From assembly GCA_000091205.1 (NCBI GenBank), contig AP006490.2: DNA of 64,000 bases; one strand, given 5' to 3'. Both the position numbers and the translations under genes were made by a program. Numbering within the stretch: position 1 is the stretch's first letter; each line of letters starts with the position of its first letter. The stretch is from Cyanidioschyzon merolae (taxonomy: Eukaryota). Below, piece by piece: positions 3,867-50,598 of the stretch. A model generated the notes under the pieces. That model saw only the letters and a list, made by a program, of their open reading frames with translations. It searched no databases and was not told the origin of the DNA.

Positions 3867-4769
3867 CGACACCGTCAGCCTCGTCCACAACCTGGTTACA
3901 AGTCAATAGCCGCACAAGTCGCAATGTGATCGCCACCACCCCGCTCAATGGAAGCACAGTCAAAAGCAGAATAGCGCTCTGCGAAGACGGCAGGCACTCG
4001 TGCCGAACACTGACATGCGCTGTGCCGTCGTTGCCGCGATCGCCGTGCACTGTGATGGACACGTGTTGCCGGTGCGTCTGCGCCAGTGCACTGCTTTCTT
4101 TTCATGACAACATGGTTATATGGATCATAGATTCCAGTTTGCGGTTTGGATAATGGTAATCAAGAAAGCGTCCGTTATGATACACTTTACTTCCAAGTTC
4201 CATCTCTCATGCTTCCTCTGGGATACACTGGTCATTTCGTACGTTCTATCGTGTGCCAAGTGCCTGTCTTGCTGTACCCGTAATAGCAGATATGAAGCCG
4301 GAGCAGATGCATGACGAAGACAGAGCGGCTTTTGCTATATTACTGAGGGCATCGGAACGAGGAACGCTTGATCTGACACGGAGTCGGCGCTCATAATCAT
4401 TCTAGGAACGAGCAAGTTGTGCTGATAGCCTTACTGCCCGCAGCAGCTCGAGGCGATGGTAGAGGAGTCCACTGCGACCAGGGCGATACCCAGACGCAGC
4501 CAAACCGCCCCTGGTTCCAGAATGAATTGCGTGTCGGACGAGTTGCTGCTCAGGTCTATTCACAGCACTAGGTACTGGGAAGGTCAGGAAGCACTGGTCT
4601 GGCAGACTCGTCCGGCTCGCAGGACACGCCGCCTGGAAGGGACACGATCGACAATTCGGAAACCTGTTCCCTTTTTTAAAGTTTATCGTTGAGAGGGAGA
4701 GAAATTGTTATTTCGTTGCTACCTAGACGCTACTCTCTGTTCTTTGTTCCATATAGTGCGGTCGATACA

Positions 4770-7545
4770 CGCACCTCCATATCTGGGAGGCGTGAGAAAC
4801 GAAGCGCATCTGGCCGTTGAAGGGAAACGTGATACTAAACATGCGCGTGTTATTCTAGCGTAGAAGTTGTATTTGCGTTGAAGTCGTAGCAAAGTATAGT
4901 TTTTCAGTTAAATTGTGTTTCAACCCTCAGCTTAGTGTCTTCAAGTGATTTTCGCGGTTTATAGCAGAAGCGTTCAAGGTGCGTTCTATTTCAAAAAATA
5001 AAAAAATATGGAAAAGGATGTGGAAGATTCTGGAGCACAGGTAGCGCCGGCGGCAAGGAAAAAAAAGATAAAAAATGGCGGAGCAAAGAGGATCAGGAGA
5101 AGACGAAGAAGCTGCACGCGGGCGACAGTACGACGAGATCGTGACGAAAGCCTGTCTCTTTCAACATATCAAGGCTCCCTGCATGCAAAAGTTGCGAGAC
5201 GTCATCAGAAATTGTGTCGATTCATACCCCGGCAGTGTTCGTAACGCTTCTTTAGGACTGATGCATATTCCGAGGGAGAGATATCGCGATGTGACGGACA
5301 TCAGAACAGTTGAGGTTTCGGAAGAGTTTTTCGACAAGACCCTAATTCGTCACCTGATACTTGGCACAGGGGAAACGTCGACGAAAAATGAGCTCGTGCA
5401 TGCCCTCCACGAAAACTTCGCCGAATACGGCTGAAACTGTACTCGGTATCGGGATGACTCGCCTATTTACTGCTACGGAGCGATGAAGTGCCTCACGAAC
5501 CTGTAGAGCCACGTGATCGTGAACCTCAAACGCTTCATGGTACGCTCCGTCTTTGCACTGTACCCGGGACTGTTTCGCAAACGAATATGGGCGATTACCA
5601 ATGGAATCACGAACGATCGACAGGATGAAGATGAGATCGAATTCGTCGACAAGAAGACATCACGCAGAAGAAAGGATGAAGCTTCTGTAATCCGTGCGGC
5701 TATACAAGAGCACCGTGCGGTACTGAGGCTGGCGAATCCAGCAGACAAGATATCAGAGTTGAAAAAAGATACTGAAAGATACGAACGCATCGTCCTGTGG
5801 TATTTCGTATTTCTGGACCAAGAGCTCGAACGCAAGGCAGAGGTGAAGCTGAGTGTAGAGACAAATGAAGCGTGGGAGAGACGGAAGGCTGTCCTAATGG
5901 GGAAGCGCTTCGACGTGGTTCCAATGTGCAATAACAAGTCACATTTTGTGACTATTGACTCCACAGTCCTTCATGGCATCATGAAGGAGATCTGTCCAGA
6001 GTTCGATGCTAGCATGGAGGAGTTCTCCGGTGAAAACCGGGAGACGTACTGGAAGAATATCTTCGATTTCAAACGTCTCAAAGTGAGCAAACAAAAGGTT
6101 TTCACTGGGTTGATCGAAACCGATGGAGTAGCCTCGTGTATACACTATCGGCGGTTGAAGAAAGATCGGCCAGTTCCGCCCTCGGCTGCGCCCGTGACGA
6201 AGGATGAAGAAAACAAAGAGGAGGATCATGTGATGCAGGAGGTGGAGGATTACGATATTGTCGTTGACATGACGAAGCATGAAAAAAAGGAGGCGGCTGG
6301 TCCGGCGACTCAGGAGGTAGAGGATAACGGCTTTATCGTTGGCGCTGCGAAGCATGAAGATGAGAAGGAGGCGGATCTCACGACGCAAGTGGTGGAGAAT
6401 AACGACTTTGTCGTTGGCGCGACGAAGCAGGAAGGTGAGAAGGAGGCGGGTCCTGCGACGCAGCAGGTGCATGAGAAGCGCGTTGTCGTTGGCGCGACGA
6501 AGCATGAAGAAAAGAAGGAGGCGTATCCTGCGACGCAGAAAGTGCAAGATAACGACTTTGTCGTTGGCGCGGACCCCGGTAACACAAATGTCATAACCAT
6601 CGCTGCACCGAAGCGTGCGGAAGATGGTACTGGTGGTAACTTTTGTTAGAGAGACATGCGTCTGTTGAGGTTCTCGAGAGCGAGATACTATTGAGAATCG
6701 GGAATCATGAATGCGAGGAAGAAAATCGAGACGTGGAATGCAGGAATGAAAGATCACCTGGAAGCTTTGAGCGAGGTGACGAGCCGCGGGACGGACTTTG
6801 AAGCTTTTCGGAAATTCATGGAAGTTCGCATTGCTCACTGGGATGCGCTGTGGGAAGAATATACAAAGTCCCGCTGGGCTCGTTTGTGAATGAATTTGTA
6901 TTGTGGTAAGCGGCGGGCGTTCGCGAATTTTTTCAATGAGTTGAGCGCCCTCAAAGAGGATCAAAGTCAAGGGGTCGTAGTAGCGTATGGGGAAGGGCGC
7001 TGGGCGCCCAAGAAAGGGACTATGCCAGCTCCGACGACGAGGGTGTACAAAGAGTGCGCAAGGCGTTTCGTTACAATACCTGTAGACGAGTTCCCAACAT
7101 CGTATACACACCATGAACTGGGATGTACACTTCAGAGAGTGGAGATGGAAAAGTGCCAACGGAGCCCTGAGGAATTTGCAAAGTACGGACCGGTGACGGA
7201 GGAGCAAATGGAAAGGAGAGCGAAAGTGCGAGGATTGCTTGCATTGGTAAGTACAACGAATGACGGCAAGAAACGTATGGAGTTCGTGAACTGTAATTTT
7301 AACGCCGCAATCAGTATAAGCGGATGTGCGGTGCTGGAGGAAAGACCTCGAAAGTCCACAAGAGTGAACTTTGTTGGACAATCGCTCAAAGTAGAATTAT
7401 ATGAGACAAGATTGGAAGCAGTAGTAGGTGGCCGGTCCAATAAGACGGGGAGGCGTCTGCACGTCAGTCGAAGACTTTTCGTCCAGGGCGGGCTTCTCGC
7501 CACTACTGTACACCGCCGGCGACAACGTTTTTCTTTTGAAAGACG
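4770..7545 (+). mobile_element. TnpB/Fanzor-like element, copy A; degenerate, one frame 5075-7573 broken by five in-frame stops
   Basis: This copy aligns along its whole length with the element at 46680-49580 (left leader, coding region, and about 70 nt beyond the stop). The track ORFs 5075..5434, 5513..6649, 6707..6889 and 6890..7573 all lie in the same reading frame. They are separated only by stop codons: TGA at 5432-5434, TAG at 5504-5506, TAG at 6647-6649, TGA at 6692-6694 and TGA at 6887-6889. There are no frameshifts. RuvC-I is present ([11 protein letters not shown]). A TSxxC-like segment is present ([13 protein letters not shown]). The RuvC-III consensus is degraded, reading [11 protein letters not shown] where copy B has [11 protein letters not shown]. 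Confidence 0.7.
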
Positions 7546-7573
7546 TTTGCTGTTGCCGGTGACGGCTGCGTAA
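5075..7573 (+). pseudogene. TnpB/Fanzor-like RuvC nuclease pseudogene (copy A)
   Basis: Five premature stops in a single frame. Three lie where copy B has CAG, CGA and CGT. The RuvC-III Asp is replaced (RD to CN). Confidence 0.65.
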
Positions 7574-34792: not shown

Positions 34793-34799
34793 CTAGAAC

Positions 34800-35374
34800 G
34801 CTGTAGTCTCTACAAATGCGCCCTTGAATATGGAACCTTTCATTGCTACTGAAGTCAGACAGCCGAGCTTTTGGTGCCACAGCTCGAGACGGCTGCGTGC
34901 ACCCCTCTGTAACGCAGGCGTCGTGCCGCCGAACGCTACCCCAGCGAAGTGCGAGCTCGTGCGCACGGCTTTAGCGCCTTTTGCGGCAAACTAGGTGCGC
35001 TGGTCTCGACGCTCACCTTGGGCTACGTCGACATTCGAACGATATTCATCCTTACTGCCGCTGCTGCCGTCATCGGTTTCCTGGCGACGTTCATCTTCCT
35101 TCCGGATGCAACCGGGTTGGATCTGCGCGAACATGACTGGGAATGGGACCTGACTCTTCGTAACCACGCTGAGCTGTACGGCGGCGAGGCCGCCAATCTA
35201 CGACATCTGTCGCTCTGCGAACGCTGGCAAGGCAGAGGCAAACGCTACACGCCGCACTGGCGAGCCCAGTTGCGCAAAGAGGAACGTTCAAGTGATGCAG
35301 CGGCAACCAAGCTAGCAACACCGCCGATCGCGGCGAGCACCCTCATACCGTCTACTGCTCCTGACAATCGCTGA
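34800..35374 (+). pseudogene. 3' fragment of a PHO84-like MFS inorganic phosphate transporter (frameshifted remnant)
   Basis: The C-terminus RARAHGFSAFCGKLGALVSTLTLGYV...IFILTAAAAVIGFLATFIFLPDATGLDLRE matches PHO84 TRYRSTAHGISAASGKVGAIIAQTALG...IFALFMLLGIFTTLLIPETKRKTLEE. Upstream, PLNMEPFIATEV (matching GPNTTTFIVPGE) lies in a different frame. The N-terminal roughly 400 aa of a transporter are absent; the adjacent parvulin gene ends at 34792. Confidence 0.55.
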
Positions 35375-37154: not shown

Positions 37155-37796
37155 ATGGGAAGCACGCAGGATGTGCTTTTGATGAAACGTGAACTTCGAA
37201 AGCGCATGCGGGAGCTGCTTCGGCAGGTGTCAAGGAACGATTTGCGAGAGCGTTCCGCGGAAGCCTGCCGACAGCTCACCAACTCGGAGGTGTTTCGGTC
37301 TGCACGAACTGTAGCGGCATTCTGCCACATGCCGACTAGCGAAGTGGAGACGACTGATTTGCTTGCCGCCTGTTTTGCTGAAGGGAAACGCGTTTTTCTG
37401 CCCCGTGTGGATGAAGGATCAGTGCGAAAGATGTTGTTTTTGGAGGCCCACGGTCTGCAGGACGTCGAGAGCTGGCCCCTGAACGCCATGGGTATTCGGG
37501 AGCCGCCTTCTACGTGGAACGGACAAGTCAGAAGAGAAGTGCGCACGCTGGTTGAGCGAGAGCGAAAACCTCTCGACCTCATTGTCGTGCCCGGACTCGC
37601 CTTTGACACGTTCGGTCGTCGACTGGGTCGCGGCAAGGGCTACTACGACACCTTTCTGGCGACGTGTGAGCATTTGCATCACGAGATGCAGCTTCCTCCG
37701 CCTCGAAGAGTTGGTCTTGCGCTTTCATGCCAGATGGTCACCGAGGTGCCGGTATCAGCACATGATCAGGTCGTGGAGGCAGTCTTTTACGCTTGA
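37155..37796 (+). CDS. 5-formyltetrahydrofolate cyclo-ligase (MTHFS)
   Basis: LRKRMRELL...RSARTVAAFCHMPTSEVETTDLLAACFAEGKRVFLPRV...DLIVVPGLAFDTFGRRLGRGKGYYDTFL carries the family signature GxGxGYYD. Confidence 0.85.
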   Translation: MGSTQDVLLMKRELRKRMRELLRQVSRNDLRERSAEACRQLTNSEVFRSARTVAAFCHMPTSEVETTDLLAACFAEGKRVFLPRVDEGSVRKMLFLEAHGLQDVESWPLNAMGIREPPSTWNGQVRREVRTLVERERKPLDLIVVPGLAFDTFGRRLGRGKGYYDTFLATCEHLHHEMQLPPPRRVGLALSCQMVTEVPVSAHDQVVEAVFYA

Positions 37797-38726
37797 GGTG
37801 TCCGGCCATACCATGGAACGCTATGGCAAACGGGCACGCAGCTATAGCCATAGACGCTCGTACGCGCGCAAGCTTGACGATGAACGATAGCCCCGGGAAG
37901 CGCGAGCGTAAAAGCACTGACTCGGCACCGTGCACGATACAGATACCGCTGAACCTATTCATCACTGCATCGAAGCCGCAAGGCGAACTTTATCCGATCA
38001 AAACGATTGCTGAAGACTGCATGCACGACTAGAGGAGCTAGATGAAGGAACCTCTTCTGCAGGTGCATGCTCGCACTGCGTCCTATGCTGAAAAGCAGAT
38101 CCACCAACAATTCATGGGGAAGCGTACATTGCCACTGAGCACTTCACTATCCGAAAGCATCCTTCGGATGGAGTCCTTTGCCAAAACCGCGACACGACAG
38201 AGCGCTGATGGCAATCATTTCAGAAGCGTGATTATTTGACGTATGTGCGTTGCCGCGACAATAGAGCCGGCTAGGTTCGGGGATCTGGTATCATCGTAAA
38301 GAACGCAGTGCAATTCTGTGTCTTCGCGCATTGTTTTGCCCCGGTGGCATTGCACAAAGAAGTCCCTGCGTCTGAGGCAAGGCCTCGGGGTACACGCTGC
38401 ACCCGGGTCTCTGATGCCAGTAATGCTGGAGTGCTGCACTGCAGCGCACACAGGCTCACCCCTGGATGCAAAAGGCGCGTGTTCCTCGCAGCGTTTATGA
38501 TGCGTTTTCCCAAACCATGCGACAGTTTATCAAGGCCGCATCCAGAGGGCATGCACAGTCTGCGTTCCTTCAAGTATCGGGATTCTGCTGGCATAGACAC
38601 AACCACGCATCCGTGCGTACAGAGCTGGTGGTGCGATCGGTATTCGCCCAGGTGCCTCAGAGGCTGTGCAAGGCTCTCCCGCGCTCAACCATTCCACCAC
38701 CTGCCATCGTTGCGCCATCGGACTCA

Positions 38727-40007
38727 TTACAGCGCCCAGTCCTCTTCATCCAAATCAGATTCATCATCTTCTTCCTGGTCTAGTGATGCGATATCGATTT
38801 GGTATCGCAGAATACCTCCAATGCCACCAAAACCTTTCACGAACTGACTGCCCTCTGCGGTTCGATCTGTCACCAAGTCCAGATGTGCTCCGAATCGCTT
38901 GTAGTTTTGCGCGAGCCAGTCCACCAGGGACTCTGACTCTTTGATTTCCATGTCTGGTCCGCCGTCCTTGGCCGTATCACTCGCCAACTGATCCAGCTTC
39001 TCCTTCTGAACGATCCGCACAGTCTCTTCGCCCGACTGTGGGTTCATCAAGACAACACGGTCATACTCGAGGTTCTCCCAGACAATTAATTTCTCTACTG
39101 CGCCCATTTCCAGCGCCTTCATGGTATCGTCGACCCCGTAGCAATATTACCCAGTATCCAGTGCGATCTGGTCATAAAATTCCTTCAAAAGCCGCTTCTC
39201 ACGTACATATTTCACGTTTGACAGACTGTCAGCAGCCAGTTCAATCGCTTGATTGAGACCAACCTCACCGCCCTAGCTGATATCTACGACCGCGATCACT
39301 TTGGCCTGTAGACGGGGGTCGAACAGGTCGCTGCGTGCGAGCTCATTCTTAAAGTCCGCGGAACCAGCCAGCACGATGCCGCTCACATTAACTTTGTCGC
39401 CATCGGGAATAAAGAGCCGCACCGCATCTTCGCCAACACGTCGTAGATAGTTATGCCGTTTTTCCATGCGGAGACGCGCAAAACGGAGCGCGGACTGACC
39501 ACCTCGACCATGCTTCTTCGGCAAATCGACCGTGAAACGATGCAGAATCTCGCGCGTATTCCCCGAAAGTACAGCGGAAAGCGCCCCATTCCCGTCGATG
39601 ATGATGAACCCGAACTTTTCATCACCTTCAAGCAGATTCATCAGTGGTTCTACGTGGAACCGCGAGTCGCAATAATACAACGACGTGTTGATCGGCTTGT
39701 GTGCCTCGAAGTCGATGGTCACTTGTTTCTCGCCCTTGTCCGTTAGAACAGTCCCACAGTAAATTGCTAGACCGTTCGGTGGAACTTTGTTGTAGAGCTT
39801 AAGGCGCTGTTGCGTAGATGTGATAGCAGACAACACGGAAAGTCGGTTGACACGGGACTTGATGTTGGGGGCTGTTCCCGCTTCGTCTGCGAGAAGTTTC
39901 CCAACCTTTGCAACTTGGTCGCCCGGTGGAATCAGTAACGAAATCATGGACGTGCCGTTACCACGTGCTGCCTCCAAGCCTTTGAGCAGTTTTTTAATGC
40001 GGAACAT
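38727..40007 (-). CDS. Eukaryotic peptide chain release factor subunit 1 (eRF1), interrupted by two in-frame stop codons (TAG at 39273-39275 and TAA at 39147-39149 on the minus strand) with the frame fully preserved
   Basis: Track ORF 39273..40007 covers domains 1 and 2: [17 protein letters not shown] in [17 protein letters not shown] in [17 protein letters not shown]. Track ORF 38727..39122 covers the C-terminus. Between them, hand translation in the same frame reads ...[76 protein letters not shown]... This matches the canonical DISYGGENGFNQAIEL...[28 protein letters not shown]. The total span is 426 codons, as expected for eRF1. The terminal stop is TAA. Confidence 0.85.
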
Positions 40008-40607
40008 GGTTACCGCCCGATCCTCATCGTCCTATTCGTGGTTGTTCGACGGCAGTGCGGCGCCCACGGCAGCAGCAGCTACCGTCGTGATGGATGCCAT
40101 GCTTAGCGGGAAAGCACACGAACGCGACTCTCTGAACGCGTAAAAAGTAATCTCTATGCGATGAAGGCTTTTTGCTCTGCCTAAGAGTCACCCTGGTTTT
40201 AACGCAACAGCACCACCAGTGCTAGACAACGCGTAGCCGAACACTGCTGCCACCCGGTGAGAAGACCCTGGGTCGAGCGCGCATTGTGGCAGCCTTCGCC
40301 GGCGCGCCGCATCATCACAACGTCTTGGGAGAAGAGCGCTTTTCACACAGTGCTTCAGGATGTTGTTCGGTATAGCAGAGACCTGATTGCGGTAGGGAAT
40401 CGAAACAGGTTTCCAAGCGACAGCTTGAACGGCACGGTTCTAGTTCGACAGTTGCACGCAGCCTGCTGCGTTAAAAGCGGAGGAAAGCGCTTTTTCGCTT
40501 GGAGCAGGATTTGCTGCCTGTTGCAGCGAAAGAAGATTCGCTGAAAACGACGCTTTGGGCTAGCGTTCTATCGCCGAACTGGTGTTGTTGCAACGAGTAA
40601 ACTCAGC

Positions 40608-41651
40608 ATGCGGCTATTGTTGCAGCGTTGGAGCCAAACGATGCGGCACGGGAGCCGCAACGCGCTCGGGATCGTGAGGCTGCGATCCTTTCCTGGTTGC
40701 CTCTCTGGGTCGGAAAGTCGATCACACTGGAGGCCAGTCACGGTATGGAGCACGTGTGCAGCCGTCATCGCGGCGAGCTTAGCGAGCGTTCAACGCCCGG
40801 AATGGCGACCGTGGCTCTGCTACGCTGAGGCGTCCACCTCGCTAGAAAGTACACACAACTTCACGGCTGCTACGGAAAAAGTTGCACCCTTGAGCGATGC
40901 AGCGGAACCGGCAACAATACTGTGGAAACAACTGCCTGACTCGCTTGCAGAGCTGCGCAAGGCCGACATCGTGCTTTACCAATATGAAACATGTCCATTC
41001 TGCAATAAACTCCGGGCCTATCTGGACTATTGGCGAATACCGTACAAGGTTGTCGAGGTGAATCCAGTAGGCAAGAAGGAGCTAAAATTCAGCTCCTATC
41101 GCAAAGTACCCATTCTGGTGGTGAACGGCACACAACTCAACGACTCTGCTGCTATTATCAAAGCACTGGCGCGCATCACGGACCCGGACCGTGCGTTAAA
41201 CACGCAATGGTTCGACTGGATCGACTCCTGGTTTGTGCACACCTTACCACCAAATATATACCGCACCCGTCATGAGGCGCTGGAAACGTTTGACTACATC
41301 ACGGAAAAGGAGAAATTCTCGCCGTGGCAGCGCTTCACGATTCGCTACGTGGGTGCTGCGGCCATGTATTTTGTGAGTCGCCGCCTCAAGAAGAAGTATC
41401 ATATCGTCGATGAGCGCCAAGCACTCTATGATGCATGTCGTGACTGGCTCCAGGCTGTCGGTTGGCCAGAACGTCGTTTTCTGGGAGGTGCACGACCATG
41501 TGCTGCAGACCTGGCCATGTTTGGCGTCCTTCGCAGCATCGAGGGTTTCACAGCGTTTCATGAGCTCGCGGCCAATGTGCCGGAGATCGTTCAATGGTAT
41601 CGGATCATGAAGGACCAGGTGGGTCCGTCTGCGCGCATTGATTCGATGTAG
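40608..41651 (+). CDS. Prostaglandin E synthase 2-like protein (glutaredoxin plus GST-C fold)
   Basis: VLYQYETCPFCNKLRAYLDYWRIPYKVVEVNPVGKKELKFSSYRKVPILVVNGTQLNDSAAIIKAL, ...NIYRTRHEALETFDYI..., ...ARPCAADLAMFGVLRSIEGFTAFHEL. This is collinear with vertebrate PTGES2 ([34 protein letters not shown]...KFSSYRKVPIL...LNDSSVIISAL...NVYRTPTEALASFDYI). Confidence 0.85.
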   Translation: MRLLLQRWSQTMRHGSRNALGIVRLRSFPGCLSGSESRSHWRPVTVWSTCAAVIAASLASVQRPEWRPWLCYAEASTSLESTHNFTAATEKVAPLSDAAEPATILWKQLPDSLAELRKADIVLYQYETCPFCNKLRAYLDYWRIPYKVVEVNPVGKKELKFSSYRKVPILVVNGTQLNDSAAIIKALARITDPDRALNTQWFDWIDSWFVHTLPPNIYRTRHEALETFDYITEKEKFSPWQRFTIRYVGAAAMYFVSRRLKKKYHIVDERQALYDACRDWLQAVGWPERRFLGGARPCAADLAMFGVLRSIEGFTAFHELAANVPEIVQWYRIMKDQVGPSARIDSM

Positions 41652-42375
41652 AAAAGTTGCCGAATTTTCTGGTGAACTGATTACCTGCAGAACGCAAAGA
41701 ATGGAATTTTTTATCTATTTTGATGGATTGAGGATCGAAAACAATGCAGTGTTGCGTGTTGAACGCGAACGGCACAAAGAATGCAACGTTATCGATCTGG
41801 ATTGATTGTGGGTCTGGGCTGCGCAGAACGGTCTGGAAGATAGACGAGTCACCTGTGAGCACCCTCCATATCCTGAGCAAAGTACTTCGTCATCCGTGGC
41901 GAATCGTGTGCATATCTTGGATTTGTCATATGGGCAATTTTGATTGGTAGCCTGGTGCATTGCTGGTACACGTCATCCACCGAGATGCTTTGACTGTCTC
42001 ATACCAACAACCCATTCGCAAGAACGCACACGGCATCGTGTTTTGTTCCCGTAGCGGGAACTTCCGGTAGTAACCTCAACTGAGGAAGGAGCCGCTCGCT
42101 CGTGCTGCGCCCAAACCTCCAGCTGGGCATCATCATTTTTCATATCTCTGTTCAGTGCGACGAGCATGTAAAGGCAAAACTCATCAGAGATAGGCAGACG
42201 AACTAGGCACTTCCCTAGTAGCGAGGACTCTCGTTTAAGACGCCGAGTTGCCGGTGCGTCCTGCAACGTGCACCAGCGCTGTTCTCTATCGCCATCCGCT
42301 GGCTCACGCGGTACACCCAAACCTAGTCTGCGGGAAACTTACGCAAAGTTTCCAGGATCATAGCTTTGGGGCTCC

Positions 42376-42693
42376 TCACTCCCGAGTCGCGCTGTGCGTG
42401 ACCTCTTTTCGCTGGGTTGGCATCCCCAGCGACCGAACGAGGACGACGTTTTCGCCTTTGAGGAGGATCGTCCCTAGAGCAACCGTCCGCCGCTTATGCT
42501 TTGCAGTACTTCCCCACTGCTCCACGGTGTCGACCAGAACTAGATTGGTGTGTTCGTCGAAGCCGCGCAAGGTGCCTTCCAGAGAGTATCTGGTGTTTTC
42601 GAATAACCAGACCTCAACGCGGGCTTGTTGGCGCGCCAGCGTTGCTAACAACTGCTCTGGAACTATCCGTCTGTCCAGAGCGTCCTTCGGCAT
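42376..42693 (-). CDS. Sm-like (LSm/Sm) small nuclear ribonucleoprotein
   Basis: Sm1/Sm2 motifs: VEVWLFENTRYSLEGTLRGFDEHTNLVLVD ... LGTILLKGENVVLV. Confidence 0.7.
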   Translation of the reverse strand: MPKDALDRRIVPEQLLATLARQQARVEVWLFENTRYSLEGTLRGFDEHTNLVLVDTVEQWGSTAKHKRRTVALGTILLKGENVVLVRSLGMPTQRKEVTHSATRE

Positions 42694-43305
42694 CTATGTT
42701 CACCACTTAAGTTGGCTGCAGGCGTGCAACCAGGGGATTTTGCCTGCTTTTCACGGTTTGCTCGGGAGCAGATAACAGCGCGAATGCCGAAGCGAACAAC
42801 GTTACGTCAGCGCAGCAAACCCGTTTCGCCACAATATCGTGTACATGAATATCCACCCGCAGACGTGTCTCAGCCTTTTCTTACAGGGTTCTGGTATCGG
42901 TTTCAGTTTCTCCATATACACTCCGACGCTGTGAGGCTGCCCAACAAAGTTAGCTTGCCGCAGCGCTGCGTGCCTCGCATTCAGCACAAGCATCTCCTGA
43001 TATTGATACCAGCGTTGAGGTCTCGGTTCATGGACTCCATGCGTTTGTTGCCGCTGGTTGATCTCACCAATGATAGGAGACCAGAACTCGTGTACGCTGT
43101 GCCATTGGGTGCTCTGTCAGCTCTTCGTGCTGATTTGTCGACGAAATGCTCCGCTGGCCTCGCTCCAACTCAACGTCCTAGGGTGTATATTCCAGCTCAT
43201 CCCTTCGATTTTTCGAAAATGAACGCATTTGCTTATAGCCTGAGATGAGAACCTTCCCGCATCGAGCAGCACATGCGGAATAAAGACCAAATGTGCCCCG
43301 GTTGG

Positions 43306-44173
43306 TCACCATGTGCTGAACGCTTCATCAATTCGCCCGGTGGAGCGATCGTGACGATTCAGGACCCCAAACTCTCCTTCTATGGGGATGAACCACGGGT
43401 GACAAGAAGGAATGAAACCAGCTCTACCCCTCGATAGAATTGGCAAGTGCTCGAACTGAAGCAGAACGGCTGAATACCACTGTGTCCAATAGAAGGACCT
43501 TACCAGACGTTTGGGACAAGTCTTCAATGACTCGACAAAAAGAGGGCGCTGCTGCATGAGTGTTCTCTTCAGCGGAACTGAGGCAGCCAAATGAATCCAC
43601 CGCAGCTAGAACAGATGATGATGTCGACGTTCTCTACGATTTCGAGCGTACGAGCAACGGGCTCCCGCTCAGCAAGTATTCATCTGCGCTGCGATTGTCT
43701 CGTTTGAAGCAAGTCTCATCGAGTGAGAAAATAAACTGATGTTCCTGTGCTTCATACCGATCGCGACGTTCCAGGAACGCCGTGCCTGCGATTTCGGTGG
43801 AAGCTGGCCGTGAATGAACTAGCACTTTATTGCGATTGGATCCCGGTGTTTTCAGGATCACGCGAATAAGCTGTTGAGAAACAGAGACGCCCGTGGTGGC
43901 TACTATGGACGCATTTGCTTCCCGTAAATTGATCAACTGGTCGTTTTCTATCACTGAGTGCAGGCAGGCTTTGAGAATATCAGGTTTCGGCCCGGAGCGC
44001 ATATACTTGTTTCTTTCAGTGCTCGTCAAGCATCTGCGTATAGTGGTATGATTGACATCGAGGAGCAACGCAATTATCATTGCATTGTTCAGTGAAGAAT
44101 ACATATGCCGTATGCAATTCCTCCACAATCTATACAGAACATTACCTAGTGATTTCAACCTCCTCCTACACAC
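43306..44173 (-). mobile_element. Degenerate Tc1/mariner (IS630-Tc1-mariner) DDE transposase relic
   Basis: ORF 43634..44173 has an HTH region, then GPKPDILKACLHSVIENDQ...RPASTEIAGTAFLERRDRYEAQEHQFIFSLDETCF. This resembles the Tc1 segment PGRKP.L..K...ARL.FA..H..W.......V..SDE..F. ORF 43306..43590 (different frame) has WTQWYS...FIPSCHPWFIPIEGEFGVLN, resembling the C-terminal QSPDLNPIENLWGEL region. Frames are broken and there is no intact DDE triad. Confidence 0.45.
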
Positions 44174-44712
44174 CGCAGCCGCGATGAAAGAAAATTGAGT
44201 TGAAAGACTATCAACCGAAGCGCCTTTACGTCGTAACAGCGTCTGGTACTCGAAATTCTAACGCAGCCACGTACCAGCAGCGGATCGAGACGGTGAACGG
44301 ACGCACCAGCGTATACCTCTATGTACGGTATTCGCCTCTACCAGATACGCAGCATGCCTGCGATCAATGCGAACAGGCATCGAAGTGCCCTTGGTACCCA
44401 AGTTTTGCCGTCCGAGCATGCCTTCCTCGAAGACGCACCTTGCATCTATCCTCAGATCGTCGAAAACGACACCAAACATGCTTCTGCACAGCGTCCTGTC
44501 GTACAAGCGCGCCAAGTAGGCGTTTGTTTTCAGCACGGTGCTGTCTGACGCTTGGACTGCACGAGTGTAGATGCTACCGATCCCGACCAGGTCCACGGCA
44601 CCTGATAGCTGACGAGCAGGTTCCGCTGCGACTCCAAGCCCGGCAATTGGCAAGCACACGAGTCGCGCTCAACTTGCAGAGCGCTGTGTCGATCGCCGAT
44701 GCTGCCCTTGGT

Positions 44713-46599
44713 CTAACGATTCAGAGTGGCAATGTTGACAGCAGGCACGCGCCGCTGACGCACAGCTTGAGGATCGCTTCGATTCGAGACCACGGCGACA
44801 ATACGCGACCATTTCAGCGCACCGAATGCGACTTCTCCGTCACTGGCCTGCAGCTCAACTAGGCGTCGTGCAACGCGCATCTTAGCTTCCAGGACCTCGA
44901 GGGAAGCGTCCGTCGGGTCGCAGAGCCAATCCACAAAGCCCGCCATACTAGCCAACGCGACAACTCCGATTCTCGACAGACCTAGCGCAGCGAATACCGC
45001 CGCAGCAGCGAGCCGCTCTTCTTCCGAAGGATGCCGTGCACAGTCCAGGACAATGGGCAGTGCATTCGTGAACGCCTTGACGGGATCCGCATCCCTGATC
45101 GCATCAGTGAACAGATGCAGCACCCTTTGCTGCCGAAATTCGAGGTCGGATTCGGCGGCTCCGTACCCTGAGACGGCTGCTGATGAAAGCGGCTCGTCGA
45201 GACCTGCCAGGAACACACTCAAAGCACGCAAGGAGGCCACTCGAATATCGCACACGCTCGCCGTTTGAATGAAACGAAGCGTTAGTTTCAAGGTGTCAAC
45301 GTCCGCAAGCAGCACGTCCATGCCGCGTTCACAGAGCCCCAGAGCGCCAACCGCGGAGATCAGATGCACCAGCAGTGTCGTCCGACGAACTTGATCAAGT
45401 CGTACGGACCAGTGTGCTGTCTCAGTCTCGCCATCTACCACGTGAAGCAAGAGAAAGCGCCCAAGAATCTCTACGAGATTGGCGTTCATCCAAGCGTGGA
45501 AGGCGCAACGACTGGACCCGGCACTGGTGCGCACGAACCTCAGAATCCCACACATCCAAATAAACCAGCGTTCCGCCAAGTCGCTCGAGGCAGGCTCGTC
45601 TGGCGCCAACAAATGGGCAAGGTGTTGGCGTAGCAGCACATCGAATACCGAAATTTGGTCGAGCAACTCGGCTGCTATTGCACTGCGTTGCATAAAAGCC
45701 CCAAGCACATCCAGCAAGTTCAAGCGGAGTAGCAAGTCCTCATCCAAACGAACAGGAGCTGCGATTTTGGCTACAAGCACGGTTGGCAACAGCCGACGTG
45801 CGGCAATCTCTGCAACAGACGAGTAGTCGCAGATCTCAAGCAGGAAGCTCAAGGCTCGGATATGCGCGACCGCACCCGCTGCACCCGAGAGCATCTCCTG
45901 TACGAGGATTTGCGCGCCTCGTGCTTCGCTGAAGAGCACAACTGCGCCGCGGAACGGCTTCAGCTGTACCAGGTTCTTCAGGATTTTTTCACAAAGTCCC
46001 GCAGCTTCGGTGGATGGATCATCACGGAAGCTCAGCAGCACCAGTGACAGGATATCGCTGGCGTGCTGTGCAGTTGTGCTGGGAGCGTCCACTTCTGGAC
46101 CTGGCGCTTGTGCGGCCTCTATCTCCGGACGAAGCTCGTTCGTACTTTCAAAACGTTCGATAATGGTGTCTGCAACTTGCTGACAAAACGCTTCAGGCAA
46201 GTCATTCCGTTCAAGAAGGAGACAAAGCAGACGGAGCGCAGCTGTGCGTACCAGCGGGTACCGGCTGCTCAGACCGAGCTGGATGAGCTGGAGCACCTGC
46301 TCTGTAGGTACGACGTGACGAACTCGGGCACTTGTTGCAGAGAGCTTGACCAGTTTCTCCATTGTTTTCGTTAATACCCGGATGGAATCAAATATGTTGT
46401 CGGATGGTACCGCGTCGCTGTCTGAAGCCTCGAGCGACGCCCGCACCGCGTACTCCTCCAGTGTCCAGCCCAGCAGCGGTAACGGCAAACGCTCCAGCAA
46501 GTCCAGTGCCGCACACTCCGACAGTGCTCCAGCGTCTACATATTCCCTCACTGTATCCAATACTTTATCGGGAGTCCAGTCATTGTGGTGAGCGTTCAT
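44713..46599 (-). CDS. Hypothetical protein with predicted HEAT/ARM-like helical repeats
   Basis: 628-aa uninterrupted ORF. It is Leu/Ala-rich with an amphipathic repeat character. No diagnostic motif recognised. Confidence 0.4.
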   Translation of the reverse strand: MNAHHNDWTPDKVLDTVREYVDAGALSECAALDLLERLPLPLLGWTLEEYAVRASLEASDSDAVPSDNIFDSIRVLTKTMEKLVKLSATSARVRHVVPTEQVLQLIQLGLSSRYPLVRTAALRLLCLLLERNDLPEAFCQQVADTIIERFESTNELRPEIEAAQAPGPEVDAPSTTAQHASDILSLVLLSFRDDPSTEAAGLCEKILKNLVQLKPFRGAVVLFSEARGAQILVQEMLSGAAGAVAHIRALSFLLEICDYSSVAEIAARRLLPTVLVAKIAAPVRLDEDLLLRLNLLDVLGAFMQRSAIAAELLDQISVFDVLLRQHLAHLLAPDEPASSDLAERWFIWMCGILRFVRTSAGSSRCAFHAWMNANLVEILGRFLLLHVVDGETETAHWSVRLDQVRRTTLLVHLISAVGALGLCERGMDVLLADVDTLKLTLRFIQTASVCDIRVASLRALSVFLAGLDEPLSSAAVSGYGAAESDLEFRQQRVLHLFTDAIRDADPVKAFTNALPIVLDCARHPSEEERLAAAAVFAALGLSRIGVVALASMAGFVDWLCDPTDASLEVLEAKMRVARRLVELQASDGEVAFGALKWSRIVAVVSNRSDPQAVRQRRVPAVNIATLNR

Positions 46600-46679
46600 T
46601 CAGCAACAGGTTATCACGCTTTGAGATAGACATATCCAGAAGCAATCTCCTGATCGGCGGCGGGGCGCAGGACAGCCGC

Positions 46680-49580
46680 TGCGCGTGCACGCGCACCTGG
46701 CAGATCCGGCGGGCACGAGACACGACGCTCTGGTCGCTCCTGAGGGGAACAGTGATCCTGATCATTGGCGTGCTATTCTACTGTAAAAGTTGTATTCGCG
46801 TTGAGGTCGTAGCAAAGTATAGGTTTTCTGTTCCATCCTATTCCGACCCTCAATTGAGTATATTCAAGTGTTTTTTCGAAGTAAATAACAGAAGCGTTCA
46901 AAGAGCGTTCGTTTTCATAAAAAATTAAAAGGAAAGGCATGGAAATGGAAGTGGAGGATCCCGGAGGGCCGATATCGCCGGCTCTCGGAAAAGAAGGATA
47001 AACATGGCGGAGCAAAGAGGAACAGGAAGTGATGAAGAATCAAAAGGGGGCGAGGTTCTACGTCGAAGGCGGCAAGAAAGGCAACTGTACGGCGATATTG
47101 TAGTGAAAGCCTGTGTTCTTAAATATATCAAGGATCCGTAGAAGGAAAAGTTGCCGGACGCCATCAAAAACCGTCTCGAGTCGTACTCCATGAGTATGAT
47201 AAAGGCTTCTTCAGGACCGACGCATTTGGTGAGGGAGATGTATCGCTACGTGACGAACATGGAAACGGTCGAGATTCCGGACGAGTTTTTCGACAACACA
47301 TTTTTTCGTCACTTGATGCTTGGCACAGGGGAAGAGCGGAAGGATATAAGAGCTAGTGCATGCCCCTCACGAACAACATCCCTTTTGCAGGTTCGAGGGT
47401 AATCGAAACAAGGGGGACTGGGGTATTTACGACTATGGGGCGATGAAGTACATCACGAACCTGAAGAACCATTTGAAAACGAACCTCGAACGTTTCATGA
47501 TACGCGCCGTGTTTGCACTCTACCGGGGCCTGTCTCGCAAAGGAATATGGGCGATTATCAATGGCATCACGAACGATCGAAACTATGGAAATGAGGTCGA
47601 ATTCGTTGACAAGAAGGAGTCAAACCAGAGCACGAATGAGAATTCCGTCATCCGTGCGGTTATCGAAGAGCATCGTGCGGTACTGGGGCTGGCGAATCCA
47701 ACAGACAAGATATCAGAGTTGAAAAAAGATAGGGAAAGATACGATCGCCTCGTTCTGCGCTATTTTGTGTTTCTGGACCGAGAGCTCGAACGCAAAGCGG
47801 AGATGAAGCTGAGTGAAGAGACAAATGAAGAGTGGGAGAGACGGAAGGCTTTCCTAATGGGTAAGCGCTTCGACGTGGTTCCAATGTGCAAGATCAAGTC
47901 ACATTTTATGACTATCGACTCCGGCGTCCTTTACGGCATCATGAGGGAGATCTGTCCGGAGTTCGATGTAAGGAAGACAGAGTTCCCCGGTGAAAACCGT
48001 GAGACGTACTGGAAGAATATCTTCGATTTCAAACGTCGCAAAGTCAGCAAACAAAAGGTATTCACTGGGTTGATCGAAACCGAAAGAGTAGCCTTGTGTA
48101 TACACTATCGGAGGTTGAAGAAAGATCGGCCAGTCCCTCCCTCGGCTGCGTCCGTCACGAAAAATGAAGAAAAGGAGGAGGCTGGTCCTGCGAAGCAGGA
48201 GGTAGAGGATAACGACCTTGTCGTTCACGCGGCGAAGAATGAAGAAAAGAAGGAGGCGGGTCCTGCGACGCAGGAAGTGGAGGGTAACGACCTTGTCGTT
48301 GACGTGACGAAGGATGAAGAAAAGAAGGATGCGGATCCTGCGACGCAGGAGGTAGAGAATAACAGCTTCATCGTTAACGCGACGAAGCATGAAGAAAAGA
48401 AGGAGGCGGGTCCTGCGATGCAGGAGGTGCATGAGAAGGACCTTCTCGTTGGCGCGGCGAAGGATGAAGATGAGAAGGATGCGGATCCTGCGACGCAGGA
48501 GGTAGAGAATAACGACTTTATGGTTGACGTGACGAAGCATGAAGAAAATGAGGATGCGGGTCCTGCGACCCAGAAAGTGCAAGATAACGACTTTGTCGTT
48601 GGCGCGGACCCTGGGAATACGAATATCATCACCATTGCAGCACCGAAGCGTGCGGAAGATCGTACTGACGGCAACTTGCGTCAGAAAGACATGCGTCTTT
48701 TGAGGTTCTCGAGAGCGAGATACTATCGAGAATCGGGAATCATGAATGCGAGGAAGAAAATCGAGACTTGGAATTCAGGAATGAAAGAGCACCTGGAAGC
48801 TGTGAGCGAGGTAACGAGCCGAGGAGCGGACTTTGAAGCTTTTCGGAAATTCATGGAAGTTCGTGTTGCGCATTGGGATGCTCTGTGGGAGGAGTATACC
48901 AAGCCCCGGTGGGCTCGACTGCGTATGAATCTATACGGTGGGAGGCAGCGCGCATTCCCAAATTTTTTCAATCAGTTGAGTGCCCTGAAGGAGGATGAAA
49001 GTCAGAGGCTCGTAGTAGCGTACGCAGCAGGGCGCTGGAAGACCCAAAAAGGGACTACTCCGGCCCCAACGACAAGAACGTTCAAGGAGTGCGCAAGGCG
49101 TTTCGTTACGATACCTGTAGATGAGTTCCGAACGTCGTATACGCACCATGAACTGGGGTGTACACTCCAGAGGGTGGAGATGGAAAAGTGCCAGCGGAGC
49201 CCTGAGGACACAGCAAAGCACGGACTGCTGACGGAGGAGCAAATGGAAAGGATGGCAAAAGTTCGTGGACTGCTTGCATTAGTGAGTACAACCAGTGATG
49301 GTAAGAAACGTATGGAATTCGTGAACCGTGACTTTAACGCCGCTATCAATATACGGAAATGTGCGGTGCTGGAGAAGAGACCTCCAGAATTGACAGGAGA
49401 GAATTTCGTTGGACAACCTCTCAAAGTCGAACTATATGAGAAAAAGTTGGAGGCAGTTGTAGGCGGCCGGTCGAGAAAGGCTGGGAGGCGTCTGCACGTC
49501 AGGTAAAGAGTTTTGTCTAAGGCGCCGGTCGTCTCAACTGTACACTGGCACCATCGCCGGTGCATTCGACAGATGGTGTC
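46680..49580 (+). mobile_element. TnpB/Fanzor-like element, copy B; most intact copy
   Basis: The left leader is homologous to copy A from about 46680. An N-terminal ORF (ATG about 46994 to TAA 47402) contains one in-frame TAG and then a 1-nt insertion relative to copy A. That insertion shifts into the main 716-aa ORF 47356..49506 (GTG start as listed). A conserved non-coding tail of about 70 nt follows the stop. Confidence 0.75.
47356..49506 (+). CDS. TnpB/Fanzor-like RuvC-fold nuclease (IS605 OrfB superfamily), core ORF of copy B
   Basis: RuvC-I: [18 protein letters not shown]. TSxxC-like: [15 protein letters not shown]. RuvC-III hallmark: [21 protein letters not shown] (RDxNAAxNI). There are six to seven 26-aa tandem repeat units ([22 protein letters not shown]) immediately N-terminal to RuvC-I. 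Confidence 0.75.
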
Positions 49581-49824
49581 CATGTTGTACTGAATTTACC
49601 AGTCTCCGGCGTCGTGCAGCCGCGGCCCCGCTGCAGCACTGGCAGTGTCGCCACCGCCGTCCTTTCGTTCGCTCATCGGGTATCGTCTCCAGTCCGACTT
49701 GCTAGTGGCCCGCCTTCCCTGTAGAGGAAACAGGGACTGGACTGTTCGTGACCTCGCTACCGAGTTCCGGTCGCTGTTTGAGTTCTCTTGCAGTTGCGGT
49801 TTCCGCTAACTACTTGTCTTTCGC

Positions 49825-50598
49825 ATGGCGCGTGGCCCAAAGAAGCATCTGAAGCGCCTGGCAGCGCCAAGGCACTGGATGCTCGCTAAACTTGGCGGCA
49901 TCTGGGCCCCTCGACCTTCAGCTGGCCCACATAAGCTTCGAGAATGTTTACCTCTGATCATCATTCTGCGAAACCGGTTGAAGTACGCGCTCACTGGGCG
50001 AGAGGCTATGCAGATCCTCATGCAGCGGCTGGTTCGTGTGGACGGGAAAGTTCGCACAGACCGCACTTTTCCCGCTGGCTTCATGGATGTTATCCATATC
50101 GAAAAAACCAATGAGACATTTCGTTTACTCTACGACACAAAGGGGCGTTTTGTGCTCCATCGAATCACACCCGAGGAGGGCAAGTACAAACTGTGCCGCA
50201 TCAAGCGTCAACAACTGGGTGCCCGTGGCATCCCGTACATCGTGACACACGACGGGCGCACCATTCGGTATCCAGATCCATTGATCAAAGTGCACGACAC
50301 CGTCGTCCTTGATATCGAGACCGGGAAGATCACGGACTTTGTCAAATTCGACATCGGCGCGCTCTGCATGATCACCGGAGGCCACAATATTGGTCGCGTT
50401 GGTGTCGTACAGCACCGCGAGAGACACCCGGGTGCGACTGAAATTGTGCACTTGAAGGACGCTGCAGGGCGAGAGTTTGCGACACAGATCAGTAACGTGT
50501 TCGTTATTGGTCGAGAAAAGTCGCTCGTCTCGCTACCGCGTGGCAAGGGAGTGAAGCTCTCCGTCGTTGAGGAGCGCGAGCGGCGAGGCCTGCTCTAG
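49825..50598 (+). CDS. RPS4: 40S ribosomal protein S4 (eS4)
   Basis: [61 protein letters not shown]... is collinear with eS4 throughout. The stop is TAG. Confidence 0.95.

What the first reader, a model, noticed from the sequence alone, without database searches (positions are those of the whole stretch)
49507..49580. Conserved non-coding tail downstream of the nuclease stop codon in copies A and B: candidate omega-RNA / right-end region
After the stop, A (7470-7545) and B (49507-49580) remain alignable at roughly 70% identity. A reads cgtcag tcgaagacttttcgtccagggcgggcttctcgccactactgtacaccgccggcgacaacg. B reads cgtcag gtaaagagttttgtctaaggcgccggtcgtctcaactgtacactggcaccatcgccggtgca. Flanking host sequence is unrelated. 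The segment contains short inverted repeats (gccggtcg...cgccggtg). From established knowledge, in TnpB/Fanzor systems the guide (omega) RNA overlaps the 3' end of the ORF and extends into the right end.
Basis: partly seen in the sequence, partly recalled or inferred. Interest (0 to 1): 0.5.

Follow-up and report, generated by a model that had tools for sequence, protein, structure and literature searches.

The report
Fanzor transposon right end, probable guide RNA
The roughly 80 conserved bases after the nuclease gene are the structured right end of an old, already catalogued red-alga Fanzor1 transposon family. It most likely encodes that nuclease's guide-RNA scaffold, which makes it an expected feature of a known system, not a new one.

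Summary
The tails of A and B align at 48 of 66 columns (z 6.3), and the sequence beyond them is unrelated.

The same tail occurs in 88 more copies from hot-spring metagenomes, always on the nuclease strand. It has three parts:
- a small hairpin (SL1) that spans the family's usual stop codon;
- a short G+C-rich hairpin (SL2), followed by a conserved linker ACUACUGUA;
- a long terminal hairpin (SL3; B 49543-49584, A 7511-7561).

SL3 is the informative part. All 19 of its pairs show compensatory changes, and G·U outnumbers A·C 200 to 34. It therefore acts as the single sense strand. Conservation stops at its 3' foot, and the next bases carry no positional information in 55 distinct loci.

The protein is a Fanzor1. 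A profile that includes it hits the solved Fanzor1 structures 9cf0, 8gkh and 9cer.

The family fits CMe-1A of Cyanidioschyzon merolae (Bao & Jurka 2013). The tail's position, length and architecture match known Fanzor1 ωRNAs.

Not shown: any RNA, any guide use, any TAM. A role as a DNA-level transposon end is not excluded and may coexist.

Both window copies are decayed. The verdict is a new member of a known kind, of modest interest.

The parts
49485..49584 (+). Copy B tail as matched by the family covariance model: last ORF codons, SL1 remnant, SL2, linker and SL3
   Evidence: cmsearch with R1: 42.9 bits, E 3e-8 to 3e-9, full model 1-102. Folded alone: -39.1 kcal/mol, z -1.48.
49507..49518 (+). 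B: remnant of SL1 (AGA/GTTTT/(G)TCT). In the family this is AGAC-loop-GUCU and carries the usual TAG stop
   Evidence: Alignments. The modal stop lies in the 3' arm. B has a 1-nt deletion here.
49521..49533 (+). B: SL2 (GGCG-CCGGT-CGTC), a weakened version of the family's GGCG..CGCC hairpin
   Evidence: In the family, 96% of cells are paired but there are no double changes.
49534..49542 (+). B: single-stranded linker TCAACTGTA (family consensus ACTACTGTA, over 90% conserved)
49543..49584 (+). B: terminal hairpin SL3 (CACTGGCACCATC ... GATGGTGTCCATG). Its 3' foot is the right end of the element
   Evidence: The MFE fold extends it to 49540-49590. Family covariation; G·U/A·C asymmetry.
49585..49604 (+). 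B: first 20 nt of unique flank (TTGTACTGAATTTACCAGTC). This is the putative guide if the tail is an ωRNA scaffold
   Evidence: No positional information downstream of the SL3 foot in 55 distinct loci. The guide role is inferred only.
47356..49506 (+). Copy B Fanzor1 ORF (716 codons) with RuvC residues D418, E590 and R658-D659. It contains six 75-bp tandem repeats at 48157-48606
47094..47342 (+). B: N-terminal Fanzor coding segment in a different frame from the main ORF (frameshift), so B is not fully intact
   Evidence: tblastn with relatives P0123, P0137 and P0241.
46680..46695 (+). B: G+C-rich palindrome TGCGCGTGCACGCGCA at the left edge of the module shared by all copies (family: GCGCTC-GGT-GAGCGC)
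7450..7561 (+). Copy A tail (SL1, SL2, linker, and SL3 at 7511-7561)
   Evidence: cmsearch: 77.3 bits, E about 1e-17. Fold: -51.3 kcal/mol, z -3.10, 0 of 200 shuffles as good.
4767..7449 (+). Copy A Fanzor module, degenerate: frameshifts and stops, RuvC-III D to N, family stop TAG mutated to CAG
4091..4700 (+). TE-N2_CMe-like module fused upstream of copy A, which gives the CMe-1A architecture
   Evidence: description in PMC3627910.

Best explanation
The tail is the right end of a roughly 2.9-3.5 kb non-autonomous Fanzor1 transposon of a Cyanidioschyzon/Cyanidiococcus-type red alga. The family fits CMe-1A.

Proposed mechanism, with each step marked:
1. The last codons of the Fanzor ORF and the roughly 70-80 nt after the usual stop are transcribed with the gene (inferred).
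2. They fold into SL1, SL2, a conserved single-stranded linker and a long terminal hairpin SL3. The folding of SL3 in the sense strand is shown by covariation and by the G·U excess.
3. The transcript runs on into the flanking DNA. The scaffold plus about 15-20 nt of flank forms an ωRNA of about 100 nt (inferred by analogy with SpuFz1, PpFz1 and GtFz1).
4. This ωRNA would load into Fanzor1 and direct RuvC cleavage of sites that carry the matching flank next to a TAM, that is, sites lacking the element. This would favour retention or copying of the element (inferred).

Both window copies are decayed. A is a pseudogene. B has an N-terminal frameshift, an early stop and a weak tail. They are relics of this system, not active units.
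For: - The tail is conserved in about 65 distinct copies. A covariance model finds 88 full-length tails in the related loci, plus A and B in the window, all on the Fanzor strand.
- SL3 covaries. Overall, 87% of cells are paired against 79.5% in shuffles (0 of 500 reach the observed value). 21 of 27 pairs have changes on both sides (12.7 expected), in 114 cells against 33 expected. The covariation score is 0.197, against at most 0.04 for the slid controls. All 19 SL3 pairs show double changes.
- Two hairpin classes keep a 10-11 bp stem in a shifted register: CGUCGUUCGA/UCGAACGGCG and AACGUUUUUC/GAAAGACGUU.
- The structure is strand-specific. G·U outnumbers A·C 200 to 34 in SL3. The + strand folds at -33.5 kcal/mol on average, the - strand at -28.7 (p = 7e-7). 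Mean z is -1.45 for the tail, 0.04 for the flank and +0.93 for the CDS.
- The boundary is sharp. At most 0.13 bit per position is found after the SL3 foot in 55 distinct loci, and pairwise identity falls to 0.26.
- The protein is a Fanzor1. Profile A3 hits 9cf0 (7e-21), 8gkh (3e-14) and 9cer (3.5e-7). D418, E590 and R658-D659 are conserved. 16 of 77 relatives match PF07282.
Against: - No RNA data of any kind were available.
- The tail's sequence identity does not exceed that of third codon positions, so there is no sign of purifying selection on primary sequence.
- SL1 and SL2 hardly vary, so they are uninformative. Neither clearly equals the 7-bp SL1 of solved Fz1 ωRNAs.
- The covariation counts come from an alignment fitted to the structure. 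The plain MAFFT alignment gave weak statistics.
- The middle of the distal SL3 stem is unpaired in about 30-40% of copies.
- No TAM or empty site could be defined.
- B's own tail scores poorly (43 bits, z -1.5).
- The zinc-ribbon cysteines of the TNB domain are largely missing in this clade, so nuclease or RNA-binding competence is unproven.
- G·T-tolerant hairpins in single-stranded DNA would give the same strand asymmetry.
Confidence: 0.6

Rival explanations
1. The tail is purely a DNA-level transposon end. SL3, perhaps with the left-edge palindrome, is a single-stranded DNA hairpin recognised by a transposase supplied in trans. Candidates are HUH/rolling-circle enzymes (Helitron2- or IS200/IS605-like) or some other type. 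On this reading no guide RNA is made from it.
For: - The family has no TIRs and no TSDs (PMC3627910; none seen).
- Palindromes lie at both edges of the shared module.
- The strand asymmetry fits a top-strand ssDNA hairpin as well as an RNA.
- The N2 5' terminus GACAAAACGT is complementary to ACGTTTTGTC in SL1 (p about 0.007), and the flank left of N2 is T-rich. Both recall the asymmetric TIRs and the TTTT target of Helitron2, which carries Fanzor1 in Chlamydomonas.
- 5'-truncated 3' fragments exist in the window.
Against: - No RepHel, Y1 or other co-amplified transposase ORF occurs within about 4 kb of 80 loci or in the window.
- The putative 3' ATIR lies about 75 nt from the end, not the 20-30 nt of Helitron2.
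- A stem with about 5 G·T in 19 pairs is weak as DNA.
- Every characterised Fanzor so far has its ωRNA at exactly this place.
- This rival does not exclude an ωRNA: in IS200/IS605 both functions overlap.
Confidence: 0.2
2. The tail has no function of its own. It is simply the last stretch of an old repeat, conserved by descent, and its hairpin is a neutral leftover or an mRNA 3'-end or stability element.
For: - Pairwise identity of the tail (0.59-0.80) is no higher than at third codon positions (0.79).
- Copies are about 80% identical and many are decayed.
- There is no Rfam match.
Against: - Compensatory changes occur at all 19 SL3 pairs, and the stem has been re-formed in a shifted register.
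- The 6:1 excess of G·U over A·C is not expected for neutral decay of a palindrome.
- The tail is more structured than the flank or the CDS.
Confidence: 0.12
3. The tail is coding. Either it is a C-terminal extension of the nuclease, or B's 'cag|gtaaag' is a 5' splice site and the ORF continues.
For: A reads through to 7573. B's stop context resembles a splice donor.
Against: - The modal stop is a TAG inside SL1, and other copies stop earlier.
- Indels of 1, 2 and 4 nt are common after it.
- B's GTAAAG derives from the family's GTTGGAGAC by point changes.
- The host genes in the window are uninterrupted long ORFs.
Confidence: 0.03

Closest known systems
CMe-1A Fanzor1 element and TE-N2_CMe of Cyanidioschyzon merolae (Bao & Jurka 2013, PMC3627910)
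   Same: - Red-alga host of the same lineage: RPS4 is 95% identical to that of Cyanidiococcus.
- About 3 kb, with hundreds of copies about 80% alike.
- No TIRs or TSDs, and only some copies have an intact Fanzor1 ORF.
- The 5' part is a 600-670 bp module that also exists alone: window 4091-4700, and solo at 10303-10886 on the - strand.
   Different: - The Repbase consensus was not available, so identity with CMe-1A is by description only.
- The host is not C. merolae 10D itself. It is a hot-spring metagenome lineage.
- The 2013 paper predates ωRNAs and does not describe the 3' tail, its hairpins or the left-edge palindrome.
- Many copies here, B among them, lack the N2 module or carry it inverted.
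SpuFz1 / PpFz1 / GtFz1 ωRNAs (Saito 2023 PMC10432273; Xu 2024 PMC11423790)
   Same: - The RNA is encoded from the ORF end to the transposon right end.
- The scaffold is 60-135 nt and made of stem-loops.
- It ends where conservation ends, and the guide is the adjacent flank.
- The protein is homologous.
   Different: - No RNA or activity data exist for this family.
- Spu-1 has 30-nt IRs and this family has none.
- The solved ωRNAs share a 7-bp SL1. Here the first two hairpins have 4-6 bp, and the guide-proximal hairpin is unusually long (up to 19-23 bp).
- The zinc-ribbon cysteines are mostly lost in this clade.
CRe-1/2/3 Fanzor1 elements in Helitron2 of Chlamydomonas reinhardtii (PMC3627910; fRNA in PMC10530073)
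   Same: - Fanzor1 is the only ORF of a non-autonomous element.
- There is a conserved structured 3' UTR/right end and a terminal hairpin.
- 3' fragments are in excess, and the left flank is T-rich.
- A short asymmetric inverted repeat joins the 5' terminus to a subterminal 3' site.
   Different: - The 3' repeat is about 75 nt from the end, not 20-30 nt.
- No RepHel partner was found.
- The complementarity is only 10 bp (p about 0.007).
IS200/IS605 TnpB ωRNA / right end
   Same: Subterminal hairpins at both ends, no TIRs or TSDs, and an ωRNA scaffold that overlaps the 3' end of the nuclease gene and the RE, with the guide outside the element.
   Different: This is a eukaryotic nuclear element. 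No Y1 TnpA is present, no conserved target or TAM motif was identified, and the protein is a Fanzor1 with large insertions.

Membership tests
Fanzor1 (protein of copy B) | RuvC catalytic residues D ... E ... RD in the C-terminal half | tested here: met
   D418 (DPGNTN), E590 (VDEFRTS) and R658-D659 ([10 protein letters not shown]) are invariant or nearly invariant among 77 relatives. Copy A has N in place of the last D.
Fanzor1 (protein of copy B) | Detectable sequence homology to characterised Fanzor1 proteins | tested here: met
   B alone gives no hit in Pfam, NCBIfam or PDB. A profile of B plus 76 relatives hits PpFz1 9cf0 (7e-21), SpuFz1 8gkh (3e-14) and GtFz1 9cer (3.5e-7).
Fanzor1 (protein of copy B) | C4 zinc ribbon (TNB / OrfB_Zn_ribbon) between RuvC-II and RuvC-III | tested here: not met
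   B has only two Cys and two His in this stretch, and the clade consensus lacks the CxxC pairs. PF07282 matches 16 of 77 relatives but not B.
Fanzor1 (protein of copy B) | TnpB-like fold | tested here: inconclusive
   The AlphaFold2 model has pLDDT 48 and pTM 0.27. It is too poor for a fold search.
Fanzor/TnpB ωRNA | Encoded on the nuclease strand, overlapping or following the ORF 3' end and running to the transposon right end | tested here: met
Fanzor/TnpB ωRNA | Conserved scaffold ends at the RE and is followed by locus-specific sequence (the guide) | tested here: met
   At most 0.13 bit per position in 55 distinct flanks. Identity is 0.26 beyond the foot.
Fanzor/TnpB ωRNA | Conserved secondary structure supported by covariation | tested here: met
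   Met for SL3, with the caveat that the alignment was fitted to the structure. SL1 and SL2 are invariant and so uninformative. The alternative helix H0 is not supported.
Fanzor/TnpB ωRNA | A 7-bp first stem-loop that contacts RuvC/TNB (Fz1 structures) | tested here: inconclusive
   SL1 has 4-5 bp and SL2 has 4-6 bp. No correspondence could be established.
Fanzor/TnpB ωRNA | A stable RNA that co-purifies with the nuclease and guides TAM-dependent DNA cleavage | not testable with these tools
   No expression or biochemical data are available.
Fanzor/TnpB ωRNA | Conserved TAM at the left flank | tested here: inconclusive
   The left edge abuts several other repeat modules. Only a loose A-T/G-Y tendency is seen before the left palindrome.
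CMe-1A / TE-N2_CMe | About 3 kb, about 80% identity, no TIR or TSD, 5' roughly 635 bp equal to a separate short element, Cyanidioschyzon-type host | tested here: met
   The match is by description only.
Helitron2 | 5' ATIR at the terminus paired with a 3' ATIR 20-30 bp from the 3' end, just upstream of the hairpin | tested here: not met
   A 10-bp complement exists (p about 0.007), but it lies about 75 nt from the end, upstream of two hairpins.
Helitron2 | RepHel-encoding autonomous partner | tested here: not met
   None found in the window or within about 4 kb of 80 loci. The whole genome was not searched.
IS200/IS605-like | Y1 HUH TnpA and conserved cleavage or target motifs at LE and RE | tested here: not met
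   No such ORF was found, and there is no conserved flank motif.

The most novel reading that the evidence does not exclude
The element may be a eukaryotic analogue of an IS200/IS605-type unit. It has palindromes at both edges, no TIRs or TSDs, and a sense-strand-specific terminal hairpin. That hairpin could serve twice: as a single-stranded DNA end for a still unidentified HUH-type (Helitron2-like) transposase, and as the guide-proximal stem of a Fanzor1 ωRNA. The nuclease here has lost its zinc ribbon. If so, this would tie Fanzor1 homing to ssDNA transposition in a nearly intron-less red alga that suits experiments.
Probability: 0.15. Interest if true: 0.6.

Novelty: new member of a known kind. 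Interest (0 to 1): 0.35.

Why it matters
This gives the unclassified CMe-1A family defined ends and a concrete, testable candidate ωRNA: a scaffold of about 85-100 nt whose boundary is mapped to the base in dozens of copies. The host group, Cyanidioschyzon and its relatives, has tiny genomes and is genetically tractable. That could let the still unknown biological role of Fanzor in a native eukaryote be tested. In every other respect it confirms what is already known for Fanzor1 systems.

Tried and rejected
- Direct Pfam, NCBIfam and PDB searches with B found nothing. A profile of close copies only also found nothing.
- The AlphaFold2 model of B was too poor to use.
- RNAalifold on a raw MAFFT alignment found only SL2. 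Pair counts on the MAFFT alignment were weak because the two hairpin classes are out of register.
- The alternative helix between the last codons and the SL1 5' arm is not supported.
- Rfam gave no match.
- Search for an empty site:
  - L086 turned out to be joined to unrelated AT-rich sequence 200 nt from the element. It is probably a chimeric contig.
  - The proteins flanking A and B were not on record.
  - The Cyanidiococcus syntenic loci align only in coding regions, and they lack the whole 15 kb between the rotamase gene and RPS4.
- The splice-donor and coding-extension readings of the tail were rejected.
- A TIR between the module's left edge, or the N2 5' end, and the SL3 end was looked for by eye and not found.
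- No transposase ORF is co-amplified with the element. The multi-copy ORFs are antisense or out-of-frame artefacts.
Full report
**1. The observation**

B's ORF (47356-49506, 716 codons) ends in TAA. Homology to copy A continues past that stop. The next 80 nt are unrelated (z = -0.7).

Three details need correcting:
- The 'inverted repeat' gccggtcg/cgccggtg is a direct repeat of CGCCGGT.
- Copy A has no stop at that position and is a pseudogene: it has frameshifts, and the RuvC-III D has become N.
- B's stop is premature. In the family the modal stop is a TAG 15 nt further on (27 of 54 copies).

**2. What the elements are**

The window is nuclear DNA of an intron-poor eukaryote. Its genes include an ATP synthase subunit, Vps35, TAFII28, RPS4e and a kinetochore Sos7 protein. 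RPS4 is 95% identical to that of Cyanidiococcus yangmingshanensis and 86% to that of Cyanidium. The gene order rotamase-RPS4-Vps35-PUA-TAFII28 is shared.

B alone matches nothing in Pfam, NCBIfam or the PDB. An exhaustive profile search found 1431 relatives. A profile of B plus 76 of them, at 22-42% identity to B, hits three solved Fanzor1 proteins: Parasitella (9cf0, 7e-21), Spizellomyces (8gkh, 3e-14) and Guillardia (9cer, 3.5e-7). Sixteen of the 77 match PF07282. D418, E590 and R658-D659 are conserved. The zinc-ribbon cysteines are not.

Bao & Jurka (2013, PMC3627910) described this kind of element in Cyanidioschyzon merolae as CMe-1A:
- about 150 copies, about 80% alike;
- about 3 kb long, with no TIRs or TSDs;
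- the 5' 635 bp equal to a separate element, TE-N2_CMe;
- class unknown.

The window reproduces this. An N2-like module lies upstream of A (4091-4700), and a solo copy lies at 10303-10886 on the - strand. A metagenome scan found more than 446 copies, of which 80 loci were kept, at 80-97% amino-acid identity.

**3. Anatomy of the tail**

Across about 65 distinct copies the conserved region runs for about 85-100 nt after '...CUGCACGUCAG'. In order it contains:
- SL1: AGAC(G)-loop-(C)GUCU, which carries the TAG stop.
- SL2: GGCG-loop-CGCC.
- A linker, ACUACUGUA, that is over 90% conserved.
- SL3: for example CACCGUUGGCGUCGUUCGA-CUU-UCGAACGGCGUUGAUGGUG, 19 bp with five G·U pairs.

In B these parts lie at 49507-18, 49521-33, 49534-42 and 49543-84. 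In A, SL3 is 7511-7561. A folds well (z -3.1). B folds only moderately (z -1.5).

**4. Is the structure selected?**

A covariance model built from 12 copies finds 88 full tails in the loci, plus A (77 bits) and B (43 bits). All lie on the Fanzor strand, and there are no others in the window.

On the model-based alignment:
- 87% of cells pair, against 79.5% in shuffles (0 of 500 reach the observed value).
- 21 of 27 pairs have changes on both sides (12.7 expected).
- 114 cells carry such changes, against 33 expected.
- The slid controls collapse to a covariation score of at most 0.04, against 0.197 observed.

All 19 SL3 pairs covary. SL1 and SL2 barely vary and so say nothing either way. Two hairpin classes keep a 10-11 bp proximal stem in a shifted register. 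This is why the plain MAFFT alignment scored poorly.

Within SL3, G·U outnumbers A·C 200 to 34. The + strand folds 4.8 kcal/mol better than the - strand (p = 7e-7). The tail (mean z -1.45) is more structured than the flank (0.04) or the CDS (+0.93). The hairpin therefore works in the single sense strand.

Two caveats apply. The alignment is fitted to the model, and cells are not independent events. Also, the tail's pairwise identity (0.59-0.80) does not exceed that of third codon positions (0.79), so sequence conservation alone reflects common descent.

**5. The boundary**

In 55 distinct loci the bases after the SL3 3' foot carry at most 0.13 bit per position, and identity falls to 0.26. The right end is therefore the foot of SL3: B 49584, or 49578 if one stops at GAUGGUG.

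**6. Mechanism**

In every characterised Fanzor the ωRNA/fRNA comes from the non-coding region between the ORF end and the right end, and it extends 14-21 nt into the flank. [quoted passage not shown] Four other Fanzors behave the same way. Fz1 ωRNAs are 75-150 nt long and built of stem-loops.

The tail matches these in position, strand, size, architecture and boundary behaviour. The best explanation is that it is the ωRNA scaffold of this family, with the adjacent flank as guide (confidence about 0.6). Transcription, processing, binding, cleavage and the TAM are all inferred.

**7. Rivals**

The same hairpin could be a single-stranded DNA transposon end. Several observations recall Helitron2, which carries Fanzor1 in Chlamydomonas, or IS200/IS605:
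- the module starts with a G+C-rich palindrome (B 46680-46695);
- there are no TIRs or TSDs;
- the N2 5' terminus GACAAAACGT is complementary to SL1 (p about 0.007);
- the flank left of N2 is T-rich;
- 5'-truncated 3' fragments occur in the window.

Against this, no RepHel, Y1 or other co-amplified transposase was found, and the geometry differs from Helitron2. The two roles may coexist.

Neutral decay is argued against. A coding or intron reading is argued against.

**8. State of the window copies**

A is dead. B keeps the catalytic residues. However, its N-terminal roughly 85 residues lie in another frame (47094-47342), its stop is early, and its SL1 and SL2 are damaged. Both copies are relics.

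**9. Novelty**

The family and the ωRNA principle are both known. What is new is the definition of this family's tail, its ends and its hairpins. This is a new member of a known kind. No empty site could be recovered, so the TAM and guide remain untested.

Noticed in passing
window 47094-47342 versus 47356-49506: B's Fanzor gene is split by a frameshift. Residues about 50-135 of relatives are encoded in another frame just upstream of the 716-codon ORF. The 'intact' copy is probably not functional as annotated.
   Followed up: partly
window 48157-48606 (B) and about 6193-6572 (A): Six 75-bp (25-aa) tandem repeats ([22 protein letters not shown]) are inserted in the Fanzor ORF just before the RuvC-I motif. 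The AlphaFold2 model predicts this stretch to be disordered.
   Followed up: partly
window 4091-4700 (+) and 10303-10886 (-): These are TE-N2_CMe-like short repeats, one fused upstream of copy A and one solo. The 5' terminus is ..GATGACAAAACGTTTACATTGACC, preceded by T-rich sequence. In other loci the module sits inverted directly against the Fanzor module.
   Followed up: partly
window 29492-29734 (+) and 42895-43174 (-); also L061 about 6995-7146: These are degenerate 3' fragments of a second, more distant Fanzor subfamily (54-69% aa identity over the last 80 residues). They have their own tail motif, GTGGRTATTCAT, and are not matched by the tail model.
   Followed up: partly
window 46680-46695; family: GCGCTC-GGT-GAGCGC at the start of the shared module: A G+C-rich palindrome marks the left edge of the Fanzor module in all copies. 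Upstream of it, at least four different repeated sequences occur in different copies.
   Followed up: partly
N2 5' end (for example window 10870-10880 on the - strand) versus SL1 of the tail: There is 10-bp complementarity, GACAAAACGT / ACGTTTTGTC, between the N2 5' terminus and the SL1 region (p about 0.007 by shuffling). It resembles the asymmetric terminal inverted repeats of Helitron2.
   Followed up: partly
B residues about 592-657 (window about 49129-49326): The zinc-ribbon (TNB) cysteines typical of TnpB and Fanzor are mostly absent, both in B and in the consensus of its clade.
   Followed up: no
L019, L029, L035/L037, L075/L076, L078: Two tails lie 3.5-3.9 kb apart on the same strand. 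This suggests head-to-tail arrays or an amplified composite unit containing a Fanzor 3' fragment, a spacer of about 740 nt and a full module.
   Followed up: no
window 34792-49825: About 15 kb lies between the FHA-rotamase gene and RPS4. It includes a PSMD5-like gene, fragment D and copy B. In Cyanidiococcus and related contigs this interval is only about 750 nt.
   Followed up: partly
L093 541-1449 and 1607-3706: A 699-aa relative (46% identical in the RuvC half), from a brine metagenome, sits directly downstream of a DDE_3 (Tc1/mariner-type) transposase gene.
   Followed up: no
window 5939-7381 (-); 57 similar ORFs in the loci: A long antisense ORF runs across the Fanzor gene and recurs in most copies. 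It looks like a by-product of the strong purine skew of the sense strand (GC skew +0.2), not a gene.
   Followed up: no
L086 1-2960: This contig carries the window's RPS4 region (99% identity from window 49785) joined to unrelated AT-rich sequence. It is probably a chimeric assembly and not an empty site.
   Followed up: yes
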